NCBI GenBank assembly: GCA_040954595.2
Contig: CM082597.2
Location: forward strand, 1,594,886 to 1,658,885
Source of the DNA: Balanoglossus misakiensis
Lineage: Eukaryota; Animalia; Hemichordata
Reading direction: 5' to 3'
Length of the DNA stretch: 64,000 nucleotides
The notes under the pieces are model-generated. The model had not been told where the DNA came from, ran no database searches, and saw only the letters and a program-made list of their open reading frames with translations. The stretch's first letter is position 1. Every line of letters starts with the position of its first letter. Shown here one piece after another: positions 24,711-54,901 of the stretch. Made by a program: the position numbers and the translations under genes.

Positions 24711-26516
24711 TCACAGAATCGTACACTCTTCGTTTCTGCTGTCTGGGGGTAATGTCTTGTTGATAAGCTGTATGTTCATTTTCACGGCTGCTTGTTTTGC
24801 TTGAAGTTCTTCAGGTGGGTCGCCATTGCCTCCAAGCTGTTAATATTTAAAGGGGAATATATGTTATGTACAGCTGACCTTTTGGAAATAGTTGATTAAA
24901 TTTTATTTTGGTGTGTTACATATACAAGTGGGAGGAAGATAGGTAAAAATTACTTCATTGACTCACCCCCTCTAGGAGTTCAATCATGTCAAGTGTTCTT
25001 TCTTGGGGATCAACTGTCTCGTCGTCTTTCTCGAAGGCATTGCATATCTTCTGCAGTGCATCATGTTGACGTTCGTACCTCTCATAGTCAGAGGCTGAGA
25101 CTTTGCCTTTGTTTTCTGAAAACCACTCGGGGTACTTAGTAGAAATAAAGAGTGTCAGTAAAATGATCCATACATTGCAATTATGTAACATCTGAGAAAA
25201 TATCTGATTGATACTTACTGCATCATTCAGAACTTTCAATGGCGGATACAGGAAGTCTTTGGACAGAAGCACAGTAAACATTCCCATGAACCCCATAGAA
25301 AACATGTCCAAGTAGTCATCGTCGACATCACTGTCTGTGTCACTCTCAGCATCGCTATCATACGTTGCACTGATTGTATCAAACATCCCACTGACAAATT
25401 CCCGCCCTGAAGCCTGCAGGATAAAAGAATTTGTATCATATTACAGAAGATACTGGGTAGACTTATCTAACAGAAAGGGTTATCAACTTAGTACTACATG
25501 GTTCTTAATACAGCAACAAATGATATGACATGAACTTATGGGATTTTAATCATACCTCTTGTTCGGCCAGTTCTTTCACTTTCGTCACCCACATTTTTAA
25601 TTTTTTCACAAGATGTTTCGAAAGTCCACCTAAAAAGAACAGATGTAAAGTAAACTATGAACAAAATACAATGGCAGTAAGTAGCACTTGATTTTCAACC
25701 CATAAGCATCCCTAAAAGTAAAGCTTTGAAATGTGTCTATTTACTGATCTCATGAATTGCAATGTATAAGTATTCGTTTTTTGCGATAAAAGCACCAAAA
25801 AGGATCCACCGGTCGATCCATGTATTTCCAAAATGGCGGCACGAGCGCATTCATTGTGTTTGGAGACACTACATACATACATACACACACACAAACATAT
25901 AGTGTACATACATTTTGTACCATTTTTACTTTTCAAACTGCAACCAGCACTAACCTTTTGTTTTGGGAGATCGTTTGGGCTTCTTAAACGTTTTAAACTT
26001 TCCTAGTATATTCAGGATTTTGGCTGCTCTCTCGTCATCCATCGCTGGCTAGAAATAGTAATTATGACGAGTGTCATTAAAACAATAATGCAGGAAGACA
26101 GATTTGAATCAAGGTTGGCCGTGAAGTAACACAAGCTAGTCTTTGACTGCTAATTTTGAGGAATTACTGGGAAGGATACCAAGAGTACAATAATGAAATC
26201 CAATTTACTGCTTTCATTGTCACTGTAATAATTCTAGGAACAATTCCACGGGGAAAATTATATTGAGAACTATTGCATACCTCTTTTGTTTCTGTTGTCT
26301 CTGCCTGTGTATTTTCATTGTCCTGCTGGTCACCTGGTTTAACATCTACCATAGAAAACATTCACATATGTATACTTGATTAAACCTCCCTAACTACTGC
26401 ACTTAAAAGACCACTTCACATCTGCTTAAAGGCTGACGATTGTCTTATACGCAGTTTTGTCCCTTCTTTTCACCCAATTTCCTGATCTCCAACACAGACA
26501 AGATGGCCGCTGCCAT
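24711..26516 (-). CDS. PEX19: Divergent PEX19-like protein (C-terminal PEX19 domain + CaaX), about 254 aa
   Basis: Exons 26516-26474 (less certain), 26345-26281, 26048-25955, 25629-25556, 25413-25219, 25134-24967, 24836-24711. Motifs LLSKDFLYPPLKVLNDAYPEWFSEN...YERYERQH...KICNAFE...GDPPEEL match the PEX19 C-domain (LLSKDVLYPSLKEITEKYPEWL...GHPPKEL). Ends EECTIL*. Confidence 0.75.
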
Positions 26517-28117: not shown

Positions 28118-31100
28118 TTATGATTCTGCTTGCTCAGCAGGAGCATCACTCTGTTCTGCCGGTTTGTCTTCTTCTGCGGGCGCTGCAGGGGCTTCACCTT
28201 CTGGTTCTGCTGCAGCATCTGTTGTTGCTGCTGCTGTTTCTTCTGCTGGGGCGTCTGTTTGCTCTGTTGGTGCGTCTGCTGGTTTCTCTGTTTCTTCTGT
28301 TTGTGGTTGTGAGTCTTCTGCAGTAGCAGCTGCGGGCTCCTCTGCTGCTGGTTCATCAGATGTTGGTTTCTCCGTCGCTGGTTCCTCTGTCGCTGGTTCC
28401 TCTGCTGCAGGGGCCTCTGCTGCAGGTGCTTCTGCTGCAGGTGCCTCATCAGCTGCAGGTGCCTCAGCCGTCGGTTCTTCATCTGCCGGTTTCTCAGCAG
28501 CTGGTTCCACTTCCCCAGACGCTTCTTCGACCGGTTCAGCCACTGCAGCATCATCCACAGCCGGTTCTTTCTTCACTGGTTCCTCCGTAGCTACCTCCTC
28601 TGCCGCAGGCTCTTCCGTCGCTGGTTCACCCGCCCCCTCTGCACCACTCTTCATCTGTTTCACTTCCTTCCTTGCCTTCAATCCTTTGAATCCCGCCTGG
28701 ATCTTCACAGCTGCCTTTTCGACCTCTGGATCGTTAAGGTCAATGTCAATCTCCTCCTCTTCTTTCTTTTCCTCTACGGCTGCCTCCTCTGTTGCTGGTG
28801 CCTCGGGCTGTTCCTCCTTCTGTTGCTCAACCTCTGCTGGTGCCTCAGGCTGTTCTTCCTTTTGTTGCTCCCCCTCCACTGGTGCCTCAGGCTGTTCCTC
28901 TTTCTGTTGTTCCCCCTCTGCTGGTTTTTCTGCTTCTGCTACCTCTGTTTGTTCTGTGACTGCTTTTTCTTCTGTTGCGTGTGTTTGCTGGAAAGATAGG
29001 CAAATGGGGTGGAGGTTAGGACTCTGAACATCAGAGTAAACCGTACACGGTGACAATGGGCAATTGCGACCCCAGACACAGCATCATCTGCCACATATAC
29101 TGTGTGATATTGATAACATATCACATGGCAATGGCCATATGATTTACTTAACCATTAGCAATTATTTATATTATCAAATAAATAAAATAAATCAAAAATT
29201 TTACAAACACTGAAAGAAAAGTTAAATAATGTACAAAAGTTACTGATAACAAAAACATCAACTATTGAAAGTGTCTGGGTATGGATGAACAAAATAAGAG
29301 ACTCTTACAAACTGAGAATTATTGATAAACAACATGCAATGAGGGATGGGATTCTTGAAAGATTTAATAACATAAAGGTGATATGACTGCTTATAATATT
29401 TCGCATATTACACTGGGTACTGATGAAGCAGAGTTTTGGTCAGGATTTTTGTACCAGTCTCTTTTGACACAGAAAATCCTGACCGAAGAAGGAAGTTTCA
29501 GTTATCCAAAGTAAGTCTATGATAAGGGAACAATGTGTGAAGGGATTTCAAAACATCTTAAATGAAATTCCTGACAATTACCGTGACTATATATAAATCT
29601 ACATGCAGTGATCACTGACCCACACAGTTTACACATATGAACAAAATTGGACGTATGAGACAAAACAAATTAATGTTATAGACTCATTGCCATGACTACT
29701 TATACAGAAAACATGAGTCTGATCTTGAAAAGCCATGAATGGTTCGAGAATCGACATGACACGATACCACATAGCAGATTTCCATGTACTTAGAGTTTGG
29801 CTTACTTAGCTTGATGTCTCCTTTGAATAAGTTAATATTGAAACAAGAAGGGGGCATGATTAGCATACATATGAAATCAACAAACCATGATTTCATGACT
29901 GAAAAGAGACAAGCTGTCACAAAACATTGAAAACTGCAACACACTTTGTGTCTTTAAAATTCAAAATGGTTTCACTGGTGCAGAGAACATTATAGATACA
30001 TGTATTGTGTGATTCTTCAGCTCCATGCATTGCAGTGCGGTGCAGTGCTCTGCGCATACTCTGTGCGTTGGTAAATCTCATCTTCCAATGGCAATCGTTG
30101 TTAAATTGGCATAGAGGACCATACACATTTAACTTCAAGAACTGGGACAAGTTTCTTACTAACTCCTTTCATTTTATTTAATTGTTACTTAACAAATGAT
30201 TGACACAATGCAAAAAAAAAATCTACAATTTTTTTAAAAAGCCAACAGACAGACAGGCACCATGCAGAAATATTAAACCAATATACATCCAGCGCAGGAA
30301 AAAGAGAGAGACTACATGCAGGTTTAACCCTTTCACCACCTCAGAGTATTCCAACCCTGTTGCTTTCTGTGTGTGGTTCGAACCACTGACAGGGAAAGAG
30401 GGGTGAAAGGGTTAAAGGTTACGTAACAGCGGCAGATAAGAGACACAGAGAGATGGGTAAATGTAGACAAACCATGATGGTGAATAACTTGGATGGGAAG
30501 TAAACAAAGCCTCTACTATTTGTCCTGGGAAGAGAGAAAAAAGCCATGGAAATAATGACAGATTGGCATTTGAAAGAAAAGATGGAAATGCCAACAGCTG
30601 AAGATTAGGAACAGAAGCAAGGAGCTATTTGATTTTTAGTTAGCAGCTGACTAGCGACCTAGTATACATGTCAACAATAATAACATCATCAAAAACGTTA
30701 AATTTCCTTTTTTCCCTATATGATACCTTTCAACACTATAAGTTTCGTTATGTTTTTATTTGACCAACATCTTCTTTGGGGAGTCCAACCCCGCCATACA
30801 TGAGAATTCCCTATTTGAATGATATAATGCAAAGCCATTGGTTTCAGCCAATGAGAATGTAACTTTCAGTGATTTGCATGAAAAACACAAGTACACCTGG
30901 TAACGACACTCTTCTCAGCCAATCACAGTCCCTACCTCTTTCATTTCTTTGACTTCTTTCCTTGCTTTAAGACCCTTAAAACCTGCTTGAATTTTCACTG
31001 CGGCTTTCTCCACCTCTGGGTCATCAAGGTCAATGTCAATCTCTTCTTCCTGTTCAGCAGCCTTAGTCTCGCCCTGTCAATCAAAATAAAGTTCAAAGGT

Positions 31101-34100
31101 CATGCAAAGGCGTGCGTGTTAATGCAAGAGAATTGTGTCATATGCTTTAGTGGGTGTCTGTGACTGAGTCTGTACGTGTTGGTGAGTGGTGATACAAGTT
31201 TTGAAGAATCATGCAAGAAACATCTATATATACAAGTATCATATACATTTATAAACTACACAATAGTGACACATACCAGTACCAAGTACATGCACTGTTC
31301 AAAGGCAAAAAATATCTAGCCCACCACCCATGCCCAGTCCCATACCATCCCAGAAAGTGCAGTTGACTTGAACTTGCCCCATCCTTTACATTACACCGAT
31401 TACAAGCGAGACAATACTACTTACAACACCACGTGAATAATCCATAAGAAGTGTGGTTTATCACAACTAAGACCCACATTCTAATTAGGCACTTGTAACC
31501 ACATTATGTTCATGGGTACATATCTTATGTAGGAATAATAATGATGGTTGAGACAACCAATCAAACATAATGACATCATGACTGTCAGTACGGCATTTCA
31601 GTATTAGGTTTTTAAGATATTGGCTCCCCGACAGATCTCTTGGAAATTATTATTACTCATAGTAGCTGATGGAATATTTAGAAAATTATACACATTGTAT
31701 GCTATTGCTCCTATTTTCACACCTTACTACTTTAAGTTTTACTTCTGATCAGTGTTTCAACAAGATTGTCCTCAACTACATCAACAGCTAGTAAACAAAC
31801 AGCTGAATAGATATTTGTATTTTTCTAAACGCCCTCTTGTTTCAGATTAGGAGGTAACATGATTGACTGCTTACTACATGGAATTTGTTATGGTTAGTGT
31901 TCTGTGTAACACACCAATGCAATTACCTATGAAATTAGTTGAACTGCAGATTTATATGTTCTCATGCGTTTTTGTGCAGGCTATGATTCTTGAGAGATGT
32001 TATTCACAAACCAATGAATGGATGATATGTGTCTTTGACTTATGAAATGAAGCAAAAAGCATAACTTTGTTAGTTACTTTATCCTAAAACTGAAAAGCAG
32101 TGACAGAAAAAATGCCATGTGAACAATCTACATCATTGATTTTCGCAGATTTCGCTTTAGTAAGCTTTCAATTTTTAACATCAATTTAAGTTTTTGGAGT
32201 TCCTAGTTTGTTGTCTTTTTTATTTACATGGTGATTTCAATGTAAATGGGGGAAACACAGGACATGAGGAAAAACAAGAATTTTGTTTGATTATTGTAAG
32301 AATGACATGCCATGAATGAATGTGTCAGGTTTAGTGTAAATCCGTGGAATTCCAGTCTTACAACCACGGAAAGGAGCATCGGGAGATGTTCCGGAAAGGG
32401 AACATCACATGGAACGAATATTACGGATAATGAAGATCATCAAAGTAGTGCCACTATGAAAACTTAATGTGGTTTCAATATGAGATAAAATATGTGGATT
32501 AACTTTGGGAGAATGGGTCAGATTAAGGAAACGATGCATGGGGGATTGCATTAGGCAGTTACAATTCATTATATATGTAAATTACATGCAGATTACATGC
32601 AGAGGTGATTTGCATATATGCGTGCATTGGGAGAGCTACCGATTCGGTTTTACGACTACATATACTTTTGGGGTTTCTCTTTGGAGTGGAGTGGTTCAGA
32701 GGGTAGCTTTGCTGTTGTAGATATTACGAGAAGAGACGTACGTGCAAACTACTTTCTACGACTGTGATTACCATTAGCCTGTTTAGATTAGTACGCCCCT
32801 ACCTCCGGGTTATCGGTCTCGTCCTTCAATTCTTTAACCTGTTTTCGGGCTTTCATCCCTTTAAAACCTGCTTGAATTTTGACAGCTGCTTTTTCAACGT
32901 CAGGATCCTCAAGGTCAATGTCAATCTCCTCCTCCTCCTCGGTTGGAGTCACGTCATCCGTCACATTCCCCCCTTTTAGTTCCCCGACCTCTTTTCGGGC
33001 CTTGAACCCCTTGAAACCAGCTTGAATCTTAACAGCTGCTTTCTCCACCTCAGGATCATTCAAATCAATATCAATTTCCTCATCATCAACCCCCTCTTTT
33101 TGCCCCTCCCCGTCTCTCATTTCTGTCACCTGTTTCCTGGCTTTGAACCCTTTAAAGCCAGCCTGAATTTTGACTGCCGCTTTCTCAACATCAGGATCAT
33201 TCAAATCAATGTCAATTTCTTCTTCAGCATCAGCTGCTTCTTCTTTGTCCAACATTTTCCCCTCACCCTCTTTCAATTCACTGACCTCTTTTCTCGCTTT
33301 GAACCCTTTAAACCCAGCCTGAATTTTGACCGCCGCTTTCTCAACCTCTGGATCGTTCAAGTCAATGTCAATATCCTCCTCGGACACCTCTTTTTCCCCC
33401 TCCCCCTCTTTCATATCCGCCACTTGCTTCCTGGCTTTAAAACCTTTGAAGCCAGCCTGAATTTTGACCGTTGCCTTCTCAACTTCCGGATCATTCAAAT
33501 CAATGTCAACTTCCTCTTCTGTGTCAGCTGATTTTTCTCTGCTCAATGTTTCCCCCTCCCCTTTCAATTCACTGACCTCTTTTCTAGCTTTGAACCCTTT
33601 GAACCCAGCCTGAATTTTGACCGCAGCTTTTTCAACCTCTGGATCATTTAAGTCAATGTCTACCTCTTCAGCCGGTGTCTCCTCAGCAGGTTTCTGTTCT
33701 TCCTCTGCCTTGCTTTCTCCTTCTTTCATTTCCTTGACATGCTTCCTTGCTTTCAGCCCCTTGAATCCAGCCTGGATCTTCACGGCTGCCTTCTCCACTT
33801 CCGGATCTTCCAGATCTATGTCAATTTCCTCTTCCTCTTGTTTCTGTTCTTCCACCTATGGATAATAAAAAGAAAGACTCTCAGTGTTAAGAAAGTAACT
33901 GATCAGCAGCCGGATATATACATGTACCACAACGCATGTAACTTACAAGTGGCACAATTTTTAAATTATCCGTTCTACTATTTTCTACACAAATCACGTA
34001 TTTAATGTTTTAATACCTTGGTTTCTGTTGCTGTTTCCTCCTCAGCCTTTTCCTCAGTTTCCTTCACAAACACAAACATGGACACAAAATAAACATCCAC

Positions 34101-37100
34101 TGACAAGACAAACATGAAAATGACGTACAAGACAAACATATATAAATTGCATGTGTACAACACAAGGTGGTGACTGACCTCTGTCTCTGCTGGAGTTTCC
34201 TCAGTGACAGCCTCTTGTGTTTCCTTGACAAACAAGACAAACACAGATAAACAAACAAACAAACAAACAAAAACAAGACAGACATTGACACAGACATACA
34301 CAATCACAGACTGAATGTCAAATTGCTGTTGGCTGACAATCACATCAAAAGTCAAACCTGACATTGATGTGATGGTCACTTTGGATACCAATACTGGTTA
34401 ATTTCATTCTTTGTCAACAACAACAACAACAACAACATACACACCTGAGTCTCTGCTGTAGTCTGTTCCTCTACTTTCTCCTCTACGTCCTTTTGCACAC
34501 AAAGCAAAACAGCACAAATAAGACAAAACAAAGGGCATGCAAACAAGATACATGGTTCACATGGACAAGCAACATAACATAAATGTATACAGCACATGAC
34601 AGCTGACATACTACACAAAAAAGGCCTTTGGTAAAATGGTGTCTCAAAGTGTGACAAAACACCGTAAATAAACAAAAAAGCAACAATATGCCTACCTTTG
34701 ATTCTGTTGCCTGCTCTGCTTCAGCGACTGGTTCACTGGCCTTCACAAAACACAAACACAAACATCAACATAAACAACAATATGGACAAATAAAAACAAC
34801 TAAGCACTACACTATACATGTATGTGGTGATTACAAACTGGTGATCCATTTCATATTAGCAAACGAGTTTTGATCTGTACTATATCACTATGGCATCGCG
34901 GTCTCAGATCGTCAAAAGCTGATCAGCTAAAGTACAATAACGAGAGATGTTGTGTGACATACTGTATTACACTGTAATACCTGCATGACAGATTACCAGA
35001 GTGCATAACAGGATATCCCATCTTGTCGTTTAGAAATCTAGTGCATAATTATGTGATGCCGATTGCATGGCAAGAGCTGAAGGTTTATGTTGTGCCAATG
35101 GTTTTGATGAGCAGTGCTCTAACCATCATACAATACTGACTGAAATATCTGCTTGAATTTCACGGTTGATGTCCTTTAAAATGAACATCTGCAATTTCCG
35201 TGACTACCAAAGCAAGAAGAGTTGAGTGATGAAAGATCACAATCAACGAAAGCACCAGGGTGTAGCTAATCTGCCGTCATGAAAAGGGATCAAACCTTTC
35301 ACAGGCAAGGTGAATGAGATAGAGAAGATTACAACCAGACCATCTGTTTGTGGAGAAGATCTGACATGTGCAGAGGCAGAGATACAGTTGGTGCCCTAAT
35401 TGATCTTTCCCCAAGGAATATCAGACAGAACTTTTTTGCGCTTGGCAGTAGAGCAGTTACATCACATATGCCCTGAAAGGTGCACAGATCTTTGCGGAAC
35501 CGAACGACAAACCTCCTCAGTTTCTGTCTCCTCTTTCATAACCTGTTCCCCTTCCTTCACAACCTCCTCTGCGAGCTCCCTCACTGCCTTCTCCTCAACC
35601 TCCTCCTCATCCTTCTCCTCTTTTTTATCCTTTACAGTTTCAGCTTGGTCCTCAACTTTGACCTTCATCGGTTAGTGGGTCACATGACAGAGACACATTA
35701 GATGAGGATGAAAGATGAAACAAGATGAAAGTGAGAATGGTGTTAGAAGACATGATGAACACAAATGACATGAAATGTTATGTCTCACGCCGGGATAATT
35801 ACATACATGTATATGTGTAGTTGTATCTACTGCTCAATTTTGCTCAATTGTCAATATGTTTTGTGGCATATTTTGATCAATATTTTCGTAATGACAGCTA
35901 GCTAGGTATGCAAAATTACATTTCACAAAGAATCAAATAATATAGCAACGGACAGTTTCTGATAATAATGTTTTGCTTTAGTCATGATTTGGAATGAAAA
36001 GGCTGAGAAATGGATTTTCATTTTGTGGGCTGGCTGAATGGTTGATCAATGATCTGATGGGCATGCATCTCACTATTATGTTGTTACAAGAGGTCAGTTA
36101 AAACACACCTCCTCAACCTTAACCTCCTCTTGTTCAATGGTTTGTTCCATCTCAGTCTCTTCTTCTTCTGGGGCCTGCTCCCCCTCATCGCCATTGACAA
36201 CCACACTGTCATTAGTCGTTTCCTTTGTTAGTTAAGTATGAAGTGAAATGTATACGTAACGATAATAATGAAAAAATGGATGAAATGATGGCCACATACG
36301 GTGAAATGGAAAACAATGAGCATGAAACTACAATGCAATGCTTCTAACATGCTACTAATACTGGACCTTTTACAGTATATTGCATTGGCATAAAACTGTA
36401 TCATGTTCCAAAATGCAATGCTGTATGTATATTATTAGGCTAACTGAACCACAAATACCTGCATAAGTCTATCATTAGCAAAATATCACATAGTCGTGAT
36501 ATTGGATTTTGGCAGAGTCGAGTAACAGCAATGATTTTCAATGACAACCATGACAAAACACGCACAAAGCCTCATTGAACCACTGACAATTTGCAACTGA
36601 AACAATTCTCAGAAAAGCTCTATCTCCTGATTAGATTTTCTTGTCGAGATAAAAGGATGAATGTTCTGCACGTAAAATTAGACACAAAGTTGCATCATCA
36701 ATCATGCTGAGGCTAAAGTAGGATGATTTCTTCTAATGCAAGTTCGATCGATCAGTTGTGACCTGGCACTTGCTTCTCGCGGATCACTGAAACTTTTATC
36801 AATCATTGCAGTCATGATGCTATCTCCTTTTATATTTTTCTCCTTCTTTGCGGGCAGCTGCGTGAAGCACAGCAGGCTGCCACGTTTTTTCTACATCAGC
36901 TGATTCCCAGCACGACCAGTGATGTCATGTCACGTTTAATGAGACGATTTCCCGTGGGGATTCAAACAAATGAGGCAGAGTCTTCAATGATGGGTTTTTT
37001 CTTGATAACGTCACAAACTTCTCCTTATACTAACATGAAAGTACACAGCACTTGTTCTGTTACTATAATAAGAGTAGCTTGATGTCACGCCACTTCTTTC

Positions 37101-40100
37101 ATTTTCAATTTGATCAGCGTGAAATCGAAATTACCATCCAACCCCACACACCACAGTGATCGACACCAAGTGTCAAATTTGTGGCAAGAATACAATCAGA
37201 AATATTTGACAAATCATTCCTGAGGCGACCGGCGACCACTTATGTGAACACACACTTACCTGTTCTTGATCAGTTTTCACTTCCTGCTCAGTGGCAGCTA
37301 CTTCCTCGACAGCATCCTTGGAAATTAAAAATTCAACACACAGACATTTACAAAAACTGAACAAATAAAACATGGCAGACATGTACAATGTATACATACA
37401 TGTATGTATGTATGTGTGTGTGTGTATGCATTGTATGTATGTACACGTATTTACATGTACGGTATGTATGTATGTATGTACATTGTATATGTATGTGTAT
37501 GTATGTGTGTGTGTATGTATGATTGGATGGATGGACATAATATTATACATAAATTTGATGAACAAATTCAACGGAAAATTAAAATCAAACATCAAATATG
37601 AAGAAAACAAAAAAAGACAAAAATGTAGACAATCACACCCTACCTTTTTCTCAGCAGGGGCCTGTTCCCCTTCATCTTTGACACCATTTTCTTTTGCCTC
37701 CTTTGACGAACCAACACAAAACAAAACAAGTCACAAACAAGGACAAGACAAGGTGTGTACATTACTGCTCGCATGGGTACAGTACATGTAGGTGACATAC
37801 AAAATGTGAGGCGGATTTGAACAGTTTTATCATTGCTATGAAATGGAATGGTAGAATGCTAATAGACTAAGCATCCTACATACTAGTAGTACATAACATC
37901 AAACCTCACAGACTTCAACTGTGGAGCCTAGGTATTGTATATAAGCAGGTCAGACTCATACAATGAGATATGAGGTCAATATATTAAAAATACATGTACA
38001 ATACTTCATTTCAGTAGAATCACTATGCACATACCGGCAGCTAGGTGAGATGAATGTTAAAATTTAAAATACTCATATGAATTTTTAAAATGGAATTAGT
38101 CATCGCCAAGCTGGCAGATGGTGGATGGATGGTGATCTCAAACTGATTGTGAGGGCTCTTGTAATAAAATCATGTGTCCAGGAGTTATATTATTGCTTTG
38201 GAATGATAATGAAGGAAATTTGCAAGCTTGACATTCTTACAACCTCTGGTTTGGTACGGATGGGAAACCTCTTTAATTATACCAGAGTTGTCTCAATGAG
38301 CCTCAAAAACACAGGGCAGCGATTATTTACACAACACCACAATGCATGTGTTACACAGCCCGATGTAAACAATTACACCATGTGTATAAAGTGTTAGTGT
38401 TACATACAACTTCGTAGAACAGGTAACAAAACACCACTACATGTAACTTACCCCTCTCAGATGGTGGATATTCTTTAAAGCCGATGTTTCAATTCTGTTG
38501 CTTTAGTCAATATCCAACTTTAAGGTACATCAGCCAACTCGAGTAACTGTCGACTATTTTTCAATGCTTTGCTCTGTATATCAACCTCAATAATATTTTT
38601 ACTGAAATATGAACTTACAACTTTCTCTTCTGACTTCATTTGATGGACTTCTTTCCTGGCTTTGAGTCCTTTGAAACCAGCTTGGATTTTCACGGCTGCT
38701 TTCTCAACTTCCGGATCATTGAGATCGATGTCAATCTCCTCTTCTTCCTGTTTTGTTTCACTGTCTTTCCTGGAAAAAACAGCAATCCAATATCATGTCA
38801 TGGAAGTACAATATTCCATGTTAACAGAGGACAGTGTGACAGGGCATTGGTCTGCATGGCTCATATTTACACATGTACTGTTCTTTTGAAGATGAAAACC
38901 ACTTACTTCATCTCTTCAACCTTCTCTCTTGCCTGGTGACCTCTGACCCCTGCCTGGATTTGCGTGGCTGCTGCTTGTTGCTGTGGGTCGCTTGCGTCTC
39001 CGATGTTTTCCTGAAAGCAACAAACACAAACAAAAAGTGTGGAAAACGAACCAAAATAAACAAACCATGACAAAACCATAAAAGTAACTGAAGAAGATGC
39101 TATATACAGGAGACTCATGCATGTTGAAAATGATGAGCGAAAAAAAAATGGGGTTAAAAATCCATGCATGTTGGCATGCATTCTGTGAGCACTGTGAAAC
39201 AGTAAGATGATGATTTTAGGAATGGAATTTTTTCAAGAACACAAAATCATGTGAATTGATAACAAATGACAGTTTTATCGAGTTTTGTCGAGATATTAAA
39301 TTACAAACACAATGTATGAGAAGTATAGTTTTTTTTAAATACAGTAACTCAGACATAAAGATACAGAGAGCAGCTGGCAAGATGCTATCCCAGGGGTCTG
39401 GATGAAATTCCGGGAAAACGGGTGAACGACCATGAGACATGCGGGTTTGTGATGCCGGGGGTTCGTCATTCAAGGGTTTGCAAAAGAAAGAAAAATGGTT
39501 GGTGGGATACACCGAGTTAGAACGGAGGGAGTCACAGTCTCACATGTTTGGAGCGCCGGGATAGCCTGGAGCTGCCCTTTCCCATGTTATGTGTGGGTGA
39601 GGAAGTCTGCAAAGGGAAGAGAGTTGTGAGCTGTGTGTGAGTTGATTAAAAATGAATGTACAAGGTGGAGTGTGCTCTGGTGATACAGAAGGAAAATCAG
39701 CCGTAATACTGTACATAGGGAACTGTGTGCAAGACAAAACAAGTTACTTTGTTTTGTTTGTTTTCTTCGTCATCACCATGGGACTGAGCAATCATAGGGG
39801 GTCCGATTTGGATCTGATCACTACTTCAGACCCTTTTTCACAGAATATGAAACGTGATACAAGAATTCCTGATTGAATATAACTAAACAATTGCCCAATA
39901 TGTGGGACTGGCATTATAAGACACATTTTGGGAAAAAGGCTGGTCTGTAGCTGGAAAGATGTCAAAACTGAAAAAGTTAGAAAGGAAGACTAGAATAACC
40001 CTGGCAGGTGGCTTTTGCTGCTAATGGCTCGTTATGCATCAATCATTGTAGAGTATCTTTAAATAGAGATAATACATGCAAAGGAATACCATCGTAAATA

Positions 40101-43100
40101 ATCCATTCATGGAAGGATCCATACAAAATTGCTACTAACTCTTTCTTATTCTATTCAGCACAGAACGGTTATCGATGATGAGCTTGTACGTTCCAGAAGA
40201 TAAAAATGCATATTTGATCAGAACTTGTTACGCATAAAACTAGTTACCACTAAGGTAATCTGCTGTACAAGATTCTGCTACACGCAACTTATACACAAAC
40301 TTCAATCCATTATAATTTGATATCACTGTCTTGTCCCTTCTGTTTCACCTCTTATCAAATTATAACTCATATGTACAGAACGATTGACATTCATATGAGC
40401 ATAAAAATGAATTAAACTCTTTTGGGAAATTACAATCAGACATTCTGGTGGGGTTTATGTCTATCTCTCGCATCACGCATGATTGAACAATTAGTCTAAT
40501 GATATTGACACTAGCCACAAAATGTCAAAAGGCAGAAATGCAGACGAGAGATAACAGAACAAATTTGAAGTAAAATTTTTATTGCAGCCTGTCACGGGGT
40601 TCAGAAGATATGCAAATATCATGTGTGTCTATCACTTTGGCGTCTAGTATCATGTCCCGTGTTAATTCTGTAATGAGATGCAAAAAGTGAAAATACACCG
40701 TGATGATTGGCTAGCAAAAGTCATGTGATAGTAGCTCACTTGAGCAAAAATACTGAGTTGTAGAAATTATGATTTTGTCAGGATAGTGACAATTTTTTTA
40801 TGCTAGCAGTGTGCCAGATAGGTACCACCAGCACACAAAATGATTTGTACGAGAAACATTTCCTTCTCTTTAAAAAATGAAACTGTGATGAATGTTTTGC
40901 GAGTGACTTTCTACGATATTCATAAATATCTCCAAAATGGTCTTTTGTGTGTCGCCCCGCATTTCAATTCCCAGCGGATAATTCCCCCATCAGCCTCGTA
41001 ATATCAATAATTTATCATTCGCACATCAATCATGGATTCAATTAATGCCATGCATAAATCAGCCTTTTATCTTATCAAAGATAAAAGCAGCCCCGGCAAT
41101 GGTCGGTTTATCATTGCATGGAATTAGGAATTCACGTCAGGTGTGTTTCAGTCATTACCATGTATGCACGTCTGATGCATTGTGAGTTTAAAGTTTTACT
41201 ATGTGCCAGGAGGAGAAATTCCTTTGCAATGTCGAATGAGTCTATGCCAGGATCAGTGTGACCTATAAGCTCATATGATGCGCCACTGACTCAACAAACT
41301 CACTGGTGACTCAAGAAAATTATCCACTATACTACATACAAAGGTATACGGCTGACTCAGGGAAATTTTTAGAAATCCTCAAATTGACTCAAAGCTTTTT
41401 AAAATTATATATTTATAGGGTACACTGGTCAAGATATGGGTACCAGCCAGTGGGTCTTTTGGCCAATCAGTGGGCCATTTTAACCCACTGACTGGGTCAT
41501 TTCAACCCACCAATGGGGTCCTTCCAAACTGCAAGTGGGTCTCTTTCGCCTACCTGTATTAGGGCATTGGAAGCACATGGACAACTTAGCCTGAAGGTTC
41601 TTGGTCAAAATCCTAATCGCTAAATATGCAATTGTCTTTATAATAATGAGATGCCATGTCAAGGAAAATATCCCTTCCAGGCCTCCACGAATATCTCAAT
41701 CAAGGACAAGGATTTAAATAATCCCCATGGAATTACCAGCGCCAAATAGGGAAAACTGACTTCTTCAAATTATCCACTATTCAGGATAATGAGGATTAAA
41801 TTGAAAGAGTGACAGTAATATTGCATTGCAGTCATCATTTATGAGTAAATTAAACCTCATGTTCTGACTACAATGTGTTGAAATAAATTGGCGTTGACAT
41901 AATTGAATATCACCTCGCATTTGCTCATGTCCTTAGGACAAGATATTACATGTAATTTATACCGAATTGGTAAAACTACAAATTCAGATTTTTCCTCCTG
42001 AAAATTTACATTAATTTCAATATTCATTTGATATTTCACCAACACAAACTGGTTGACTAAAATTTTCATAAACAACATCTTACAATGAAAATGAGTTTCC
42101 TCAAAGAAATTCAAATTAATTTTCCAAATTGCACTTTGTATAATGAGAACTGGCAAAGTTTTGTTGGAAAAGTCCCTAAATTGGCCTCCAGATGAATACA
42201 TAAAGTTGAATTAGCGAAAGACAATTATTTTAAGATGTCATGATTACATCGTGTCAGGATCGACAGAATGAATCGATGTGGGGAATTAAAGTTCACAGGG
42301 AAAATCCATCTTACGTGAAGATCTACCAAAGATTTGTACGTGACTGTTCGGTACTAATTTAATAAGTTGGCATGTTATTTTACAATTTTAAAATAACAGA
42401 CAAAAATATCGCAGACTAGAAATATAGTTGACCTACCTACCTGCTGGCTGTGTCTTGTGTGTGTGGGTGGAATATGGATGTTTTTTACGACGACGGAAAA
42501 TTCAGAGAGTATTCCAGAGGGAATTTACGGAGAGTCAGGTTAAGTGGCAGTTGACAGATGGGATTCCTTGCAGAATCCAGATCAGTCAATATTTGTCAAA
42601 TCAAGCGTCAGATCACTATCAGACGTCAAGACTTGCTGTGTCACCTCGCCTGTGATTGGACAGCGTGCGATCACGTGAACCCCTGCCTGAGCAATTTCGT
42701 TACAAAGGACCTGATTGGTCAATATTCATCAACCGCTTCGATCAGTACAGTATTGCTCTGTAGAATATTGGCCAAATCCCAGAATGTAAATTTCTCTGAA
42801 TTTTTTGTCGATTTGGTTGGGGGTAGTGAGTTACATTAAAGTTTATAACAGATAGACCAATGGCCCGGGATCTGTGCGACTGTCTGTATATTTTATACGT
42901 ATGTGTTCGATTGAGAAATGTGTTTTAGAAGCACTGGTCTGCATAGACTCGATACCACAGTTTCAAGTCACTACTAAACACTAAGCTATAGTCGCTGGCC
43001 TCTCAATTTGTGCAAGTGATACTAATTAGAGTCTTTGCAAACATGCAGACTCCCTCATCCCTGGAGAATTCCAGTCATTAGGCATGCATTAAATGTGGAC

Positions 43101-46100
43101 AAATTGATTAATTGCAAATGATTAAGAGTCCAAACAAACACCTGAATTCCAAGCACATTCTAGTTCTGATATTCTGATGGACGAGATGTAGAGCGACTAA
43201 TTTTTTTTAGATTGACAAGACCACCATGATAGCTGAGATTACTGATGGTGTGGGGGCATATGCGGAGTGCTCACGGCTGAACTCCTTTACCACTATGGTT
43301 TGGTCCAAATCCATTGTTTTCTATGGCAAAATTGGACTGCTAAAATGGATAACAGGGGTGAAAGATTAAATTTCATATGACCCAATATCTTATGTCTCCT
43401 CAGCAAATTAACCAGGTGAACCAGGTGTGTGTATTAAACAAAAAGAGACAAGAAACATATTCTTTTGCAATAATACGATTCTAGTTTATGTATGCAAGAA
43501 GGAAGATGTCGGCGTGCCGGTGTTTCCTGGAAAATATCCATCATCCATAGTCTTAATTTCCTGTTCTCTAGTGCCCCGGTACAAACCAGACAAAGAACAT
43601 TACCATTCCTGTGAAGTCTTCTAATGTTCATGTTATGCGCCTCACCAGACTGCCACTAAATTTGCCCAGATTAAACAACCTAACGATTTCATAATCTAGT
43701 AACGACAGAAAAATGTTCACAGTAGCGCAAAACTGATCAATGTTCGCACAGAGAAATTTACAATTGATCAGGTGACTTTATTTCTTAATAAAAACTATAA
43801 TTCAGGAACTCAGGATGTTCTGAAGACATTGTGGCAGCTGCAAGCATTCTACTGATTAATCAAAATGCAAGTCACATCACAAGTTCGGTCAACTTTTGAC
43901 ACTCAGATGCATGAGATGTCAGGTTGGGGCACAGGTTTTGGTGACAGACAGAGTGAGTGTATGCGTGTGTGTGTTTTTGCTGAATAGCAAGACTTACTTG
44001 GAAGGCTCTGTTGTTGTAGTATCTGTCTTGAAGTTTGGCTGAAAATTCTGCTGGATCGAAACCTTCCTCTGAAAAAGAATAAATACAAAATTTCGCCTTT
44101 TATAGCATGTCATGATCTGTTCACGAATGGATTGTACATTCACACCTTACGCATTGTCTTTTGCGTTTGCAACCATTTTTCGTGGTATTTGATTTACAAC
44201 GAAAAATTCTTGGGGGACACATATCACAAATTACGTTTTTACATGTAATCTAGCATCTTTTCTTATTTCAAAATGACTTGCTCTATCAAATACAATTATT
44301 TGAGAAACACACACACTCCATCACAATACAATCCACTAATGCATATTTCTTTGTATAAACTTCCGTCATTGTGAAGCAAGACCATGTAAGTGAAATTATT
44401 GATTTTTTTCTTTTTAATTCCTCCCATTACGACACGACACGTCATATGGTAATTTTTTCATTCACATTTCCTGTCCATTACCAATATTACCACCGAAAAA
44501 AACACTTGTTGAAATTTCAATCTTGTTGTCGAGCCATCAGAATATATGCATAATATATGTTAGCTTGGTAAGACATAATGTTCATTGATTGCATCTTTTC
44601 ATTAAAATTAAGCCTGGATATATTTAAAACAAAATGAAATATTAATAACGGTCATTTATTTCTCCGTTAAATTTTCTGACATGAGTTGTCCTAACATCAT
44701 ATCTTTATGTTTAAAAATGTTTTTGCTGTGTATATATTTTTCAGTTTCTCATTCGACTGCTGAAATTACATTTAAACACTAGATAATGAGCAATTATCAA
44801 CATAGCTAGAATATGCCCAACAATTGCAGTAATTGCTCTTGTTTTCCTGGAAAAAAAAGTGTTGGGAAATATGATTCGAAATTGTGCATGATATCGAATA
44901 TAAAAGCTTAAAGGGAAAGCTACAATGACTTACCTGCAGTGGCCCAACAACCAATTCTATAAAATACACACAATCAAAACGGAGTTCGACAGATGACGAC
45001 GCACAATGTGTAAGTCTCAATTACTACTTTCCTTAATAATGAATATTAATTTATCAGGCTGAGAACTAATATGTAGAGGGCATACATGCTAAAATCACAT
45101 TAGAATTGCTGTAGACCAAACTATTATAATGGTAGGGGTGGCAGCATGCCCAGCCGGGTCTTGTTTTATGTGAGGTTTAGTTGTCAAGTACCTTTCATGT
45201 GAATTTTAATATTTTTATTCTCATTAATCTTAAAGCAAACTTGCAATGAATGAGAAAAATAAAGATATTGTTTAAACTGATACGGACATTTGTTGGACAA
45301 ATGAAAAAAGTAAGAAATTGAACATCAATTCATTTTAATGTGTATCCATCTTTTTGTTTATTTCAATATTTTGTTTATTTCAATGATATTGACGTACTCT
45401 TTGCAAATCATATCAATGACAAGATAATATATGTTACCAACTTTAACAAATACAGGCAACTGTTCAAAATGTGCTGTTTTTATGTTTAAACAACTTTAGG
45501 CAAAATACCATATACCACATTTTTATAAATTAATGTGTGATACACTTTCCAATGGAACAAAGTAGGGTTAGGAATTTTGACAAAGGTGTCAGACGTCCTA
45601 ATTAATTCAGTTTCACACTGGTATTTCAAACAGCTGTCTTGGAGTTGGAATACGTTCCACAGACGTGTCAGTCTACGAAATCAATACAGAAAAAGTGGTC
45701 CATTCACGTATTTTTCCCCACATCAGACAATTACCAAATGATGCTGGCGTTGCTTGACAACAGATGCTAAAAGGAATTTCATCAGTCCACGTTCAAAACA
45801 TTAGAAAATGGCCTGGTTTCAGAAGCTAACAGTACACACAGCATGTCGATTCTTGTGCCACATCTGGATCAAAATCCCTTGGCAAATATAAAGATCGTGA
45901 TTTGGAGCAATCGGAAAGGTTACTTAATAACACAGGATTTCAAGCGGATCATTTTTATAGTGTTAATGCTAAATCACACATGCGAAAAACAGGTTCTGCT
46001 TTTTTGGTGTGTTGATGCATAAAATCTCGTGCACGATCACGAGTGATACGGAGTACAGTACAAGCCACTACATGCATACCGCTTACTGTTATAAACACAG

Positions 46101-46315
46101 AGCTTGATCACTATGACGTGGACATTAGTAATGTAACTATGAGCACAAGATCGCATCTTACCTTCTCTGATTCGTAAAAGTTTATCGAAATAATGCGCCG
46201 AAAACTGGTAAATATTTTCGGGTTGTTCTCTGAGGACTTCGCGGGCCAGACCCTCAAGGAGGGTCTGGAAGCCGTTCGGAACCCGTAATTTGGTGTTGGA
46301 AAACGGTACTGCCAT
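28118..46315 (-). CDS. SPA17: Sperm autoantigenic protein 17 ortholog, greatly expanded: RIIa domain + 11 IQ motifs + acidic E/A/P-rich tail, up to about 1032 aa with all cassette exons
   Basis: Exon 46315-46162 MAVPFSNTKLRVPNGFQTLLEGLAREVLREQPENIYQFSAHYFDKLL and exon 44068-43998 EEGFDPAEFSAKLQDRYYNNRAFQ match the SPA17 N-terminus (MSIPFSNTHYRIPQGFGNLLEGLTREILREQP...FDPAEWGSKVEDRFYNNHAF). Further phase-consistent exons: 39010-38907, 38769-38619, 37700-37644, 37316-37260, 36222-36109, 35662-35513, 34740-34696, 34489-34445, 34223-34179, 34061-34017, 33855-32803, 31073-30936, 28987-28118. Confidence 0.88.
30324..30415. mobile_element. 84-bp piggyBac-like MITE with TTAA target-site duplication
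   Basis: TTAA|ccctttcacc ... ggtgaaaggg|TTAA (element 30328-30411), with internal palindrome gtggttcgaaccac. Related or partial copies at about 43278-43369, 49271 and 51002. Confidence 0.75.
34017..37700 (-). other. Array of eight symmetric (phase 0-0) acidic cassette exons of SPA17 (57, 57, 114, 150, 45, 45, 45, 45 nt)
   Basis: Each is an open E/K/A/T-rich frame flanked by AAG| and |GT, e.g. tttgtgaag|GCC AGT GAA...TCA AAG|gtaggc and tttgtcaag|GAA ACA CAA...ACA GAG|gtcagt. All lengths are multiples of 3. Confidence 0.75.
37383..37535. repeat. (TATG)n/(TG)n low-complexity tract
   Basis: Degenerate tatg/tgtg/ggat repeats between two cassette exons. Confidence 0.85.
39544..39585 (-). CDS. Putative alternative first coding exon of the SPA17 locus encoding MGKGSSRLSRRSKH (N-myristoylation motif + basic patch)
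   Basis: Acceptor ctctcttccctttgcag| at 39606; Kozak aacATGG at 39585; 14 codons, then |gtgaga at phase 0, in frame with exon 39010 (phase 0). Confidence 0.7.
42442..42800 (-). promoter_or_regulatory. Candidate internal promoter and non-coding first exon within SPA17 intron 2
   Basis: Minus-strand donor ccagcag|gtaggt at about 42441. Just upstream: clustered CCAAT boxes (attgg on + at about 42655, 42714, 42766), an E-box CACGTG (about 42672) and a CRE-like GACGTCA (about 42622). Confidence 0.5.
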
Positions 46316-46451
46316 CTTTGATTAACTGTGAAGTGTGTAAAATACGGCGTAACCACGTAGAAATATCGATTTGCACCTAAAAAGATCAAGTTCCCACAGT
46401 CTGTTCACAGATCGGTCATTCAACACAAGGGCGCCTTGCGTTTACTGTGTT

Positions 46452-46464
46452 GTTTCCTAACGAC
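46452..46464 (-). promoter_or_regulatory. RFX X-box-like element upstream of SPA17
   Basis: GTTTCCTAACGAC (minus strand GTCGTTAGGAAAC) 137 bp upstream of the ATG; a second strong site GTTGCTTGACAAC at 45749-45761 in intron 1. Confidence 0.55.
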
Positions 46465-47552
46465 GGCTCATGAATATGCATGAGTATACAACAATCTCCG
46501 TTGTGAAGGAAACAGCGCCCTCAAACAAAAGAGCAATAGAAAAACGTGAAGACGATATGTACACTCGCTCAAAGTTTACTATTTTCAAGAGAATTTACCG
46601 ATTTTTCTTTAAATCTAAGTATGCATTTATTTACATTTTGAAAATATATAAACATTTCCTGTACATTCATTAAAATTCACATTAATTCTTATTCTGTACA
46701 ATAGAGTGAAACCTTTCCTTACAGCCACTTGTCTACATAATCAGAACTCCAAATTATGGAGATTTTCATTCAATGTTACTTTCTGCTAACACTATGCTAG
46801 CATCAGAATAAAAACTCATCAAACGTAGCCATAGCTGGCTTTTCTACTTGAGGTGATATAACCATATCAGGTAAATAAATTGGCATGAGAAAAATACACA
46901 AGAAATTAAACATGGCACATAATATTGGCACATTAATATTTACATCTCTGTGAGTTTCCCAGATATTCTACAAATGAAGTTAGCAATTACATGAGTTTGT
47001 GACTACAATTAATTAGGCTAACTGCATTGAAGATTACTTCAAGTACTGTTATTGGAGGTTTGCAAAATTATCATTTTGTAAAAATATAACTCTTACTATC
47101 CACCAAAAATGTAATAAACTTACTAGTGGTGCCTTTCTTTGAGTGGTAACATATTCATGTTATTATTATGGATACAAGGGGAAATGTTTTGGAGATTACC
47201 TCAAAACTGATTTATTTTCAATTTTTAGCAAAAGTGCCTGAGATCGAATTCTACATACTGTGCAGTAATACTGTCTGTGAGTCTATACTATTTTGGTACA
47301 TAACCTTATTGACCGTAAAATGTTAACACCATTCCTTTAAGGCATTTACAATTCTTAAATAAAAGATTTCAACCTCCATAAATACATGTATACAAAGCTA
47401 ATGTGATATTTACATGGAGTCTTATCTTGTCTCATCTCTAACAAAATTACAGTCTAAATCTTCTAAATATTTTTGACAAAGTCCACTTTGATTGTACCAC
47501 ATTCCTTATACATCCATGGAAGACTCTGCAAAATTCCTTGGCATTCCTCGTT

Positions 47553-51921: not shown

Positions 51922-52282
51922 GATAACCAAAGCGATCGCCGAAATCGTCTCGATTCCTACATGTTGTTCACTGGATACGTGGTTTGTTTAGTTGTTGTTA
52001 ACTTCCACGGAATGTCCGCCATCTTTGCCACAAGGGTGCTAATGCGCACGCTCGTGACCCCACGGTAACCTTCTTGATTCAGGACGAAGCATGTACGCGT
52101 TGTCATGGTAGTGAGCGGTCGCGGATGACCGCCATTTTCTTGTGTGTTAAGGACCCGGGGAATATGCTTTATATTAGATATGTCTGTATATTTTAGAATA
52201 CGAAAATCAGCCATAAAACTCACGATGAGCTTCATAAACTGTCACTAGGGAGGTTGCAAGCTTTATATGTTATGAAACATAG

Positions 52283-53768: not shown

Positions 53769-54572
53769 CTACTTTGTCACCACGTCAGAGTAATCGACAA
53801 AACTTCCACTTTCGTAGGAATCTTCTCCAAAGACCTTCATCAAAATTCCACACGTTTCGTCAACGGTCAGCACCTCTCCCTTGCTGTAGCAATCGACCAA
53901 ATGTTTCTGCAGAGCGGAGTTGGCTGTGTTGTCTCGGACACTGGCCAGCATTTCGGTCTGAACGGCGCCGGGGGAGTAGCTGAGAATACGAAGATCTGGT
54001 TCTTCAACTGCCAAGACTTTGAAGATCATATCTCTGGCGGCTTTGCCTGCGCAATATATCGACATACTGGGGATAGGCCTTATCGCGTTATCTGAAGTCA
54101 TATTGATGATCGAACGACGCTGCCCTGCTTTCTTGGGAAACACCTCCAGAAATTTCGACGTCAAGTAGACTGGTGACGTCACATTGAAGCCGAAATAGCT
54201 TTGCTGTTCATTGGGATCGTTATGCTCGCTGACAGTTTTACTGACATCTCCGATGCTGGCGGCGTTGTGAACAAGAATCGTGTGCTGGAACTTGCTCGGG
54301 TCAACGTTATCGAAAAATCCAGATACGGTTGTTCGGAGGGACCCCAGATTACTCAGATCTGCCTGGACAGCCCGTACTTCAAGCCCAGTGCCACGTTTGG
54401 TCTCAACAAGGTGCTTCGTTTCTTGAAGTCCCGTTTCGGATCGAGCGCATAACACCAGAAGTGAATTCTTGCCCACCCTTTCTGCTAGATGAGTGGCGAT
54501 ACCTCGCCCTATACCCTTACTGGCACCGGTTATCAGACAGAAAGTTGGTACATCAAACACTTTAGCCGCCAT
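53769..54572 (-). CDS. SPR: Sepiapterin reductase-like SDR (copy A), intronless, 267 aa
   Basis: TGASKGIGRG Rossmann motif; LVLCARS; HNAASIGD; YCAGKAARDM catalytic YxxxK; LSYSPGAVQTEM; C-terminal YESGSFVDYSD (SPR-type FKSGAHVDFYD). Confidence 0.9.
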   Translation of the reverse strand: MAAKVFDVPTFCLITGASKGIGRGIATHLAERVGKNSLLVLCARSETGLQETKHLVETKRGTGLEVRAVQADLSNLGSLRTTVSGFFDNVDPSKFQHTILVHNAASIGDVSKTVSEHNDPNEQQSYFGFNVTSPVYLTSKFLEVFPKKAGQRRSIINMTSDNAIRPIPSMSIYCAGKAARDMIFKVLAVEEPDLRILSYSPGAVQTEMLASVRDNTANSALQKHLVDCYSKGEVLTVDETCGILMKVFGEDSYESGSFVDYSDVVTK

Positions 54573-54901
54573 TGCTCACCGTTGATGGTCGACCTTTACC
54601 CTTTTATTTGTAAGTCGATCGCTTTTTTCGATTATACAAGGCCATCCACGAATAAGAGAAACTGGAAAACTGCGCCAATGTGTGCGCATTAATTGTCTTT
54701 TTCCATAGGATTACACTGAGAAAACTTACTTCTACTATTGTCATTTTCATGGCATTTTTCGCATAGCTCAGTCAAATAAAAATATATTCACCGGTCAAAT
54801 AAAATCGTATGCCCATAGAAAAACCATTCAGTGCAGCGCAGCCACCGGTATAATTTGGAAAGGCAGCGACGTGAAAAGTCACCTGATACTTGATATCAAA
54901 C

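What the first reader, a model, noticed from the sequence alone, without database searches (positions are those of the whole stretch)
38907..42800. Hidden second N-terminus: SPA17 can apparently swap its AKAP-binding RIIa domain for a myristoylated/basic membrane anchor
Seen in sequence: inside SPA17 intron 2 is a clean exon (strong acceptor, Kozak aacATGG, phase-0 donor GTGAGA) encoding MGKGSSRLSRRSKH. It is in frame with the first IQ exon (39010) and uses the same phase as the RIIa-side exon 44068-43998. About 3 kb upstream lie a non-coding exon ending cag|gtaggt and a CCAAT/E-box/CRE cluster. Established: Gly2 plus Ser6 is the N-myristoylation consensus, and myristate plus a basic patch anchors MARCKS and BASP1; GAP-43 begins with a short lipidated exon (MLCCMRRTKQ) followed by IQ and an acidic A/E/P tail. 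Inference: one gene makes (i) an RFX-driven ciliary/sperm isoform tethered to AKAPs and (ii) a membrane-tethered, GAP-43-like calmodulin-binding isoform, possibly neuronal. The RRSKH ending resembles GAP-43 RRTKQ.
Basis: partly seen in the sequence, partly recalled or inferred. Interest (0 to 1): 0.92.

Follow-up and report, generated by a model that had tools for sequence, protein, structure and literature searches.

The report
SPA17 swaps cilium dock for membrane anchor
A marine invertebrate's long version of the sperm/cilium gene SPA17 holds a likely second promoter and start exon that would replace its scaffold-docking domain with a predicted fatty-acid membrane anchor on a chain of calmodulin-binding repeats, a swap also seen in mollusc and amphioxus gene models and a possible clue to where vertebrate neurogranin came from.

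Summary
A 63-nt exon (39606-39544, minus strand) in SPA17 intron 2 carries ATG 39585 and 14 codons (MGKGSSRLSRRSKH), in frame with the first IQ exon. Upstream lie the best donor of the intron (after 42441) and a CCAAT/E-box/CRE cluster. The exon's own splice sites are only moderate, and it could also be a frame-keeping cassette. No RNA run was available, so its use here is unshown. Other animals support the swap. Annotated isoform pairs of one gene, RIIa start versus Met-Gly start, exist in six molluscs and amphioxus. All 12 non-RIIa starts among 118 SPA17-type proteins begin Met-Gly. Amphioxus joins after exon 2, as here; molluscs join before it. No such isoform was seen in echinoderms or the nearest hemichordate. 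The product is not a small GAP-43: it has about 880 residues and 11 IQ motifs. Ten are of the PEP-19/neurogranin acidic-IQ type and lack the PKC serine. Myristoylation and neuronal expression are inferred. Boldest reading: neurogranin, SPA17's neighbour in mouse, split off from this locus.

The parts
46162..46315 (-). SPA17 coding exon 1: RIIa docking/dimerisation domain, ends in phase 1
   Evidence: PF02197 E 8.6e-16; 88% identical to P0296
43998..44068 (-). Exon 2: completes the extended D/D region (codons 52-75), ends in phase 0
   Evidence: 81% identical to P0296; residues 1-75 are the crystallised SPA17 unit (PMC8339350 section 6)
42623..42771 (-). Predicted internal promoter: three CCAAT, one CACGTG, one TGACGT
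   Evidence: no start site measured
42441..42600 (-). Predicted non-coding first exon; 5' end is a guess, donor CAG|GTAGGT after 42441; no ATG in 42640-42442
   Evidence: best of 276 GT sites in intron 2
39544..39606 (-). Alternative start exon, ATG 39585, 14 codons, Gly2/Ser6, five Lys/Arg, no acidic residue; also open as a 21-codon cassette
38907..39010 (-). First IQ exon (plain IQ, shared by both starts)
   Evidence: PF00612 E 6e-5
38619..38769 (-). Exon with acidic-IQ repeat 1
34017..37700 (-). At least six small phase-0 acidic spacer exons (37700-37644, 37316-37260, 34740-34696, 34489-34445, 34223-34179, 34061-34017); two further acidic exon-like stretches near 36200-36110 and 35660-35515 were not placed in the model
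32803..33855 (-). Large exon with seven acidic-IQ repeats
   Evidence: PF00612 E 3.7e-46, 7 stretches
30936..31073 (-). Exon with one acidic-IQ repeat
   Evidence: matches PEP-19 2N77 over acidic and IQ parts, E 3e-5
28118..28987 (-). Terminal exon A: last acidic-IQ repeat, Ala/Glu/Pro tail, stop
   Evidence: AATAAA at 27774
24711..26334 (-). Alternative 3' exons: Pex19-like domain ending in a CaaX-type CTIL and stop; the upstream donor was not mapped
   Evidence: 52-80% identical to the end of P0296; PF04614 E 5e-28 in P0160

Best explanation
This long SPA17 gene likely has two promoters, and the internal one would make an isoform that lacks the whole RIIa docking region and starts instead with a predicted myristoylated, basic peptide that would tether eleven IQ motifs to the inner face of a membrane. 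Shown in sequence: the exon, its frame, the upstream donor and motif cluster, the loss of codons 1-75, and ten acidic-IQ repeats that keep the residues PEP-19 needs. Inferred steps: transcription starts near 42.6 kb; splicing runs 42441 to 39606 and 39544 to 39010; Met1 is removed and Gly2 myristoylated; five Lys/Arg add binding to acidic lipid; each repeat holds calcium-free calmodulin and speeds calcium exchange at its C-lobe, as PEP-19 does. The RIIa form would hold the same calmodulin array on AKAP-type helices in cilia. With no PKC serine in the repeats, release from the membrane is more likely set by phosphorylation of serines in the basic start (Ser5, 6, 9, 12), which is untested.
For: Same-gene isoform pairs with RIIa versus Met-Gly start, identical from the junction to the end: Mytilus trossulus 823 of 823 residues, Mizuhopecten 1576 of 1576, Pecten 1464 of 1464, Ruditapes 494 of 494, Branchiostoma lanceolatum 390 of 390; two Haliotis species share runs of 250 and 248 (names). 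Of 118 SPA17-type proteins among 320 fetched, 106 start with RIIa and 12 of the other 12 start Met-Gly, against 27 of 192 other Met-start proteins. Ser/Thr is at position 6 in 11 of 13 Met-Gly starts. Amphioxus joins downstream of exon 2, as here. Chance controls 1 of 3000 and 0 of 3000. PEP-19 is the only solved chain of 19 listed that matches both the acidic and the IQ part of the repeat profile (E 3.7e-7). The positions of its Asp31, Ile32, Asp33 and Pro37 are invariant in 10 of 10 repeats, with Ile/Val and Leu at Phe30 and Met34.
Against: The exon's own donor and acceptor are weak to moderate. The 63-nt exon is also an open in-frame cassette. The nearest relative, Glandiceps, showed only RIIa starts, but only 2 of at least 16 isoforms were seen. 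All 5 echinoderm, 3 Lineus and 4 chiton proteins seen start with RIIa. Mollusc exons sit in intron 1, so they are not the same exon. Of 24 genomic loci with exon 2 located, none had a strict MGxxx[ST] exon with an in-phase donor. Lys at position 3 is excluded by the PROSITE myristoylation pattern (recalled); known Lys3 substrates have Lys7, and this one has Arg7 (recalled). The other-species isoforms are computed gene models whose read support I did not see.
Confidence: 0.66

Rival explanations
1. The exon is a real alternative start but the product is not myristoylated; the isoform is simply an RIIa-less, soluble or weakly membrane-bound calmodulin buffer.
For: Lys3 with Arg7 is not the best-attested substrate pattern (recalled). 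All 13 Met-Gly starts from other species have Gly, Ala, Thr, Asn or Ser at position 3. No cysteine is available as a second anchor.
Against: Gly2 is kept in 13 of 13 other-species starts, Ser/Thr6 in 11 and Lys/Arg7 in 9, which points to selection for acylation; five basic and no acidic residues here.
Confidence: 0.12
2. The 63-nt exon is a cassette spliced between exon 2 and the first IQ exon of the RIIa isoform, adding a 21-residue basic, serine-rich linker; the Met-Gly is internal.
For: Length is a multiple of three, phase 0 at both ends, no stop; the 965-aa form is open. The gene is full of small phase-0 exons.
Against: An open frame of this kind has roughly one chance in four (my estimate), so it says little. 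Both Glandiceps isoforms seen join exon 2 straight to the IQ exon. It leaves the top-ranked upstream donor, the motif cluster, the Kozak context and the cross-species Met-Gly starts unexplained. Both uses could coexist.
Confidence: 0.12
3. The exon and promoter are chance look-alikes in a 5-kb intron and are never used.
For: The core pattern arises in 47 of 3000 resamples; splice sites are modest; no hemichordate or echinoderm Met-Gly isoform was seen.
Against: All features together 1 of 3000; motif cluster 0 of 3000; the same kind of start at the same relative place in amphioxus.
Confidence: 0.1

Closest known systems
Vertebrate SPA17 (Sp17; RIIa-clan D/D protein, PDB 7MY4, 8J07)
   Same: Exons 1-2 encode the 75-residue extended D/D region, followed by one IQ motif.
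   Different: Vertebrate chains are 147-151 aa with a single IQ. This gene adds ten acidic-IQ repeats, a Met-Gly start and an optional Pex19-like CaaX end. No lipid-anchored SPA17 surfaced in the literature searches.
PEP-19/PCP4 and neurogranin (acidic-IQ calmodulin regulators)
   Same: Repeat aligns without gaps to PEP-19 over acidic coil and IQ. By eye, 18 of 30 positions are identical to the neurogranin 13-49 peptide printed in bioRxiv 10.1101/2024.03.21.586151.
   Different: Ten copies in a large protein rather than one in a 62-78 aa protein; glycine at the PKC serine, as in teleost and Xenopus neurogranin; calmodulin binding untested.
GAP-43/neuromodulin
   Same: Short predicted lipidated start, IQ, acidic Ala/Glu/Pro tail (A+E+P 44%).
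   Different: No match to Neuromodulin Pfam families; no cysteine; no PKC serine; 11 IQ motifs. GAP-43's cysteine palmitoylation is recalled.
Drosophila igloo
   Same: Described as the invertebrate GAP-43-like gene (PMC6917273, passages) and as a calpacitin (PMC9618489, passages). Atlas look-alikes of mollusc and amphioxus Met-Gly starts were arthropod 'Neuromodulin' and 'Igloo' clusters at 0.86-0.89.
   Different: Scores under 0.9 are leads only. I had no igloo sequence, so orthology is untested. That igloo uses alternative promoters and PKC-regulated modules is recalled from Neel and Young 1994, which I did not see.
MARCKS/BASP1-type myristoyl plus basic anchors; alternative first exons that add acylation
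   Same: Gly2/Ser6 with a basic patch; promoter choice sets location (general knowledge, recalled).
   Different: No sequence relation tested or expected; the basic patch here is adjacent to Gly2 and short.

Membership tests
SPA17 | N-terminal RIIa D/D domain with the SPA17 flanking strands (residues 1-75) | tested here: met
   amphioxus orthologue versus solved SPA17, E 2e-35
SPA17 | IQ motif downstream of the D/D region | tested here: met
SPA17 | AKAP binding (with ROPN1L), ciliary location | not testable with these tools
   known for vertebrate SPA17 (PMC8339350, passages)
N-myristoylated proteins | Gly2 after the initiator Met, Ser/Thr at 6 | tested here: met
N-myristoylated proteins | Small uncharged residue at position 3 (PROSITE rule, recalled) | tested here: not met
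   Lys3 here; met in 13 of 13 other-species starts; exceptions with Lys3 are known (recalled)
N-myristoylated proteins | The Met is used as a start and myristate is attached | not testable with these tools
   no RNA or proteomic data
Acidic-IQ calmodulin regulators (PEP-19, neurogranin) | Hydrophobic plug at Phe30/Ile32/Met34 positions with Asp31, Asp33, Pro37 ahead of the IQ | tested here: met
   10 of 10 repeats
Calpacitins (GAP-43, neurogranin, igloo) | PKC serine inside the IQ motif | tested here: not met
   Gly in 10 of 10 repeats; Ser present in some repeats of echinoderm, mollusc and nemertean orthologues
Calpacitins (GAP-43, neurogranin, igloo) | Neuronal expression; apo-calmodulin binding | not testable with these tools
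GAP-43/neuromodulin | Cys3/Cys4 palmitoylated start and Neuromodulin_N / Neuromodulin Pfam domains | tested here: not met
   no Cys; no such Pfam match
RFX-driven ciliary promoter (first promoter) | X-box near the start | tested here: inconclusive
   3-mismatch site at 46500-46513 only; recalled consensus

The most novel reading that the evidence does not exclude
The ancestral animal SPA17 locus was a two-in-one gene: a ciliary RIIa form and an internal-promoter, lipid-anchored acidic-IQ form. In vertebrates it split, leaving short SPA17 (RIIa plus first IQ) and, next door, neurogranin; PCP4 and GAP-43 would be its duplicates and insect igloo a parallel product. For: the repeat matches neurogranin (18 of 30 by eye) and PEP-19, vertebrate SPA17 lacks it, Nrgn and Spa17 share one mouse locus (PMC4098794) and are linked in human (PMC3759718), and zebrafish nrgnb has also been called spa17 (PMC9415131). 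Against: the same repeat occurs in Saccoglossus twitchin and a different Nematostella RIIa protein, so it is mobile; the paper lists Siae between the two genes and their orientation is only recalled; the start found here lies before the first IQ, whereas a neurogranin promoter would have to lie after it.
Probability: 0.35. Interest if true: 0.85.

Novelty: new variant of a known kind. Interest (0 to 1): 0.66.

Why it matters
SPA17 is known as a small sperm/cilium protein. If the reading holds, invertebrate SPA17 is a switchable calmodulin scaffold: promoter choice sends the same array of PEP-19-type modules either to AKAP-type docks or to membranes, and an optional CaaX end offers a second predicted anchor. 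The isoforms already sit in public annotation under unrelated names (titin-like, triadin-like, neurofilament-like), and my searches found no paper on them. It also gives a testable route to the invertebrate ancestry of neurogranin, PCP4 and GAP-43, through synteny and expression in amphioxus, hemichordates and lamprey. The general device, an alternative first exon that adds acylation, is known.

Tried and rejected
No RNA holder was listed for 37200-46500, so no reads could be laid; this is no evidence either way. No whole genome is held. A search with the first IQ exon alone found nothing (8 candidates, none at E 10 or better). The search with the hemichordate IQ region was dominated by multi-repeat proteins and surfaced only one more Glandiceps isoform. 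Scan of 38 of 58 metagenome loci (75 kb after exon 1; 20 left out as too short downstream or spliced) gave one short Met-Gly exon with a phase-1 donor (L002) and a nested ORF (L043, L047, L048, L050); the first is within what chance could give over that length. Atlas igloo hits stay leads. No structure or complex was predicted: the protein is largely low-complexity and no calmodulin sequence was at hand. RRSKH as a GAP-43 trace: rejected. RFX control: undecided. Pfam hits to Yop-YscD, Seipin and DUFs are below cut-off per stretch and taken as repeat artefacts. Literature searches with no paper on a lipid-anchored or second-promoter SPA17, or on a SPA17 origin of neurogranin: (listings only; the library lacks most subscription papers, and Neel and Young 1994 and PMC2734486 were not seen). 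PMC11043121 (passages) added nothing. Earlier-findings look-ups were empty. No supplements were read.
Full report
Observation. The stretch lies on the minus strand inside a SPA17 gene. Exon 1 (46315-46162) matches Pfam RIIa (E 8.6e-16). Exons 1 and 2 sum to 225 nt, exactly the 75-residue extended docking region crystallised for zebrafish SPA17 (PMC8339350, section 6 read). In intron 2 a 63-nt exon (39606-39544) holds ATG 39585 and 14 codons ending at a phase-0 GTGAGA donor. Joined to 39010 it gives an open 883-aa frame on a minimal exon model; the RIIa form gives 944 aa. It is the only open Met-Gly start reaching a donor in introns 1-4, and resampled introns gave the full feature in 1 of 3000 and the core in 47 of 3000. 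The upstream donor, after 42441, is the best of 276 GT sites in the intron, while the exon's own donor ranks 18 of 276 and its acceptor 13 of 237. The CCAAT/E-box/CRE cluster is unique among 12 CACGTG sites in the window and arose in 0 of 3000 resamples. These criteria were set after seeing the feature.

What the gene is. It is far longer than vertebrate SPA17: one plain IQ exon, then ten near-identical repeats (84% mean column identity) among acidic spacers, ending at 28118. The closest protein found is from the hemichordate Glandiceps talaboti (P0160, P0296), so the window is likely an enteropneust; that is inference from similarity. Further exons at 26334-24711 encode a Pex19-like domain ending in CTIL, matched in Glandiceps, bivalve and nemertean isoforms, so the gene appears to vary at both ends.

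Evidence from other animals. Three searches and three cluster look-ups gave 320 proteins (120 of 234 hits listed, 150 of 1539, 120 of 267). Of these, 118 carry a SPA17 exon-1 or exon-2 signature; 106 start with RIIa and all 12 others start Met-Gly, against 27 of 192 other Met-start proteins. The tally cannot see forms that join after exon 2; one such, amphioxus P0206, was found by inspection. Same-gene pairs are identical from the junction to the end in Mytilus trossulus, Mizuhopecten, Pecten, Ruditapes and Branchiostoma lanceolatum, and share long runs in two Haliotis species. Position 6 is Ser/Thr in 11 of 13 and position 7 Lys/Arg in 9 of 13; several mollusc starts share Ser6-Arg7-Leu8 with this exon. 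Mollusc starts join exon 2, so they lie in intron 1; the amphioxus start joins after exon 2, as here. The function recurs but the exon's place differs, which allows either movement or separate origins. These are computed annotations whose read support I did not see.

Results against. No Met-Gly isoform appeared in Glandiceps (2 of at least 16 isoforms seen), five echinoderm, three Lineus or four chiton proteins. Among 24 metagenome loci with exon 2 located, none had a strict MGxxx[ST] exon with an in-phase donor; four (two sequence types) instead hold a conserved 259-277 aa Met-Gly ORF in intron 1 (72% identical, no Pfam match) that ends in its own stop. The exon here is also an open 21-codon cassette. 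Lys3 is outside the usual myristoylation pattern (recalled), unlike the 13 other-species starts.

How it most likely works. An internal promoter near 42.6 kb would give a non-coding exon, the Met-Gly exon, then the IQ exons. The product would lack residues 1-75, so it could neither dimerise through the D/D region nor dock on AKAP helices (role of that region: PMC8339350, passages and section 6). Predicted myristoyl-Gly2 with five basic residues would hold it on acidic membranes. The repeats are of the PEP-19 type: PEP-19 is the only one of 19 listed solved chains to match both acidic and IQ parts (E 3.7e-7), and the residues that PMC5122967 (Discussion read) reports as needed to speed calcium binding, Asp31, Asp33 and Pro37, with the hydrophobic plug, are kept in 10 of 10 repeats. 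So each repeat likely parks calcium-free calmodulin and tunes its C-lobe. The serine whose phosphorylation blocks calmodulin binding in GAP-43 and neurogranin (PMC3589724, passages) is glycine in all ten, as in teleost neurogranin (PMC9415131, sections 11 and 23), so that switch is absent here. Sequence features are shown; transcription, splicing, acylation, binding and tissue are inferred. I put this at 0.66.

Comparison with the known. It is a member of SPA17. It works like a membrane-tethered, multi-copy PEP-19/neurogranin, and loosely like GAP-43 or igloo, but fails GAP-43 membership (no cysteine, no Neuromodulin domain, no PKC serine). Atlas look-alikes of two Met-Gly starts were arthropod Igloo-type clusters at 0.86-0.89, leads only. 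Eight literature searches (listings) gave no paper on a lipid-anchored SPA17 or on its link to neurogranin; most subscription papers are not covered.

Boldest reading. The repeat is 18 of 30 identical, by eye and without gaps, to the neurogranin peptide printed in bioRxiv 10.1101/2024.03.21.586151 (passages), while human SPA17 matches only over the IQ. Nrgn and Spa17 lie in one mouse locus, written Esam/Vsig2/Nrgn/Siae/Spa17 (PMC4098794, passage), and a SPA17 intronic variant is tied to NRGN expression in human (PMC3759718, passage). This suggests vertebrate neurogranin split from the 3' part of a long SPA17. Against it, the repeat also occurs in twitchin and another RIIa protein, gene orientation is only recalled, and the start found here precedes the first IQ. 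Probability 0.35.

Verdict. Real sequence feature, probably a functional second start, with good cross-species support and no direct transcript evidence in this species. New variant of a known kind; interest 0.66.

Noticed in passing
window 26334-24711 (-): Alternative 3' exons add a Pex19-like domain and a CaaX-type CTIL end to SPA17; conserved in Glandiceps, mussels, scallops and Lineus isoforms. A second predicted membrane anchor (prenylation), possibly from fusion with a PEX19 copy.
   Followed up: partly
window 23754-21676 (-): A second RIIa-plus-IQ gene lies directly downstream in the same orientation (RIIa E 1.5e-5; IQ exon near 21760-21680): likely a tandem SPA17/CABYR-like paralogue.
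   Followed up: partly
window 51920-47570 (-): Multi-exon gene just upstream of SPA17, same strand, with an IQ-like motif near 49640 and an X-box-like site near 52100; not identified.
   Followed up: no
L047:11370-12149, L043:2098-2931: Conserved single-exon ORF (259-277 aa, 72% identical, no Pfam match) starting MGACTSK nested in SPA17 intron 1 of an AT-rich animal; predicted myristoyl/palmitoyl start; no splice to the IQ exons shown.
   Followed up: partly
L002:7177-7201: Eight-codon Met-Gly start with Cys5, Ser6 and a strong phase-1 donor, 4.4 kb after SPA17 exon 1; fits an intron-1 alternative start but exon 2 is not on the contig.
   Followed up: partly
P0095, P0125, P0151: Saccoglossus twitchin-like protein and another giant protein carry several of the same acidic-IQ repeats at the C-terminus, showing the module is mobile.
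   Followed up: partly
P0269 and P0270: Biomphalaria-type entries show two different Met-Gly starts on the same body, suggesting more than one internal start.
   Followed up: no
window 37700-34017 (-): Five of the six small spacer exons use AAG acceptors after T/G-rich tracts rather than CAG/TAG; likely a regulated microexon set.
   Followed up: no
window 53769-55702: Two divergently oriented intronless short-chain dehydrogenase ORFs that look like sepiapterin reductases (recognised by eye, not searched).
   Followed up: no
window 58165-60249 (-), 19739-20710 (+), 11281-11973 (-): Intronless RING/B-box/NHL (TRIM-like) ORF, a BTB-like ORF and a proprotein-convertase-like first exon; recognised by eye, not searched.
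   Followed up: no
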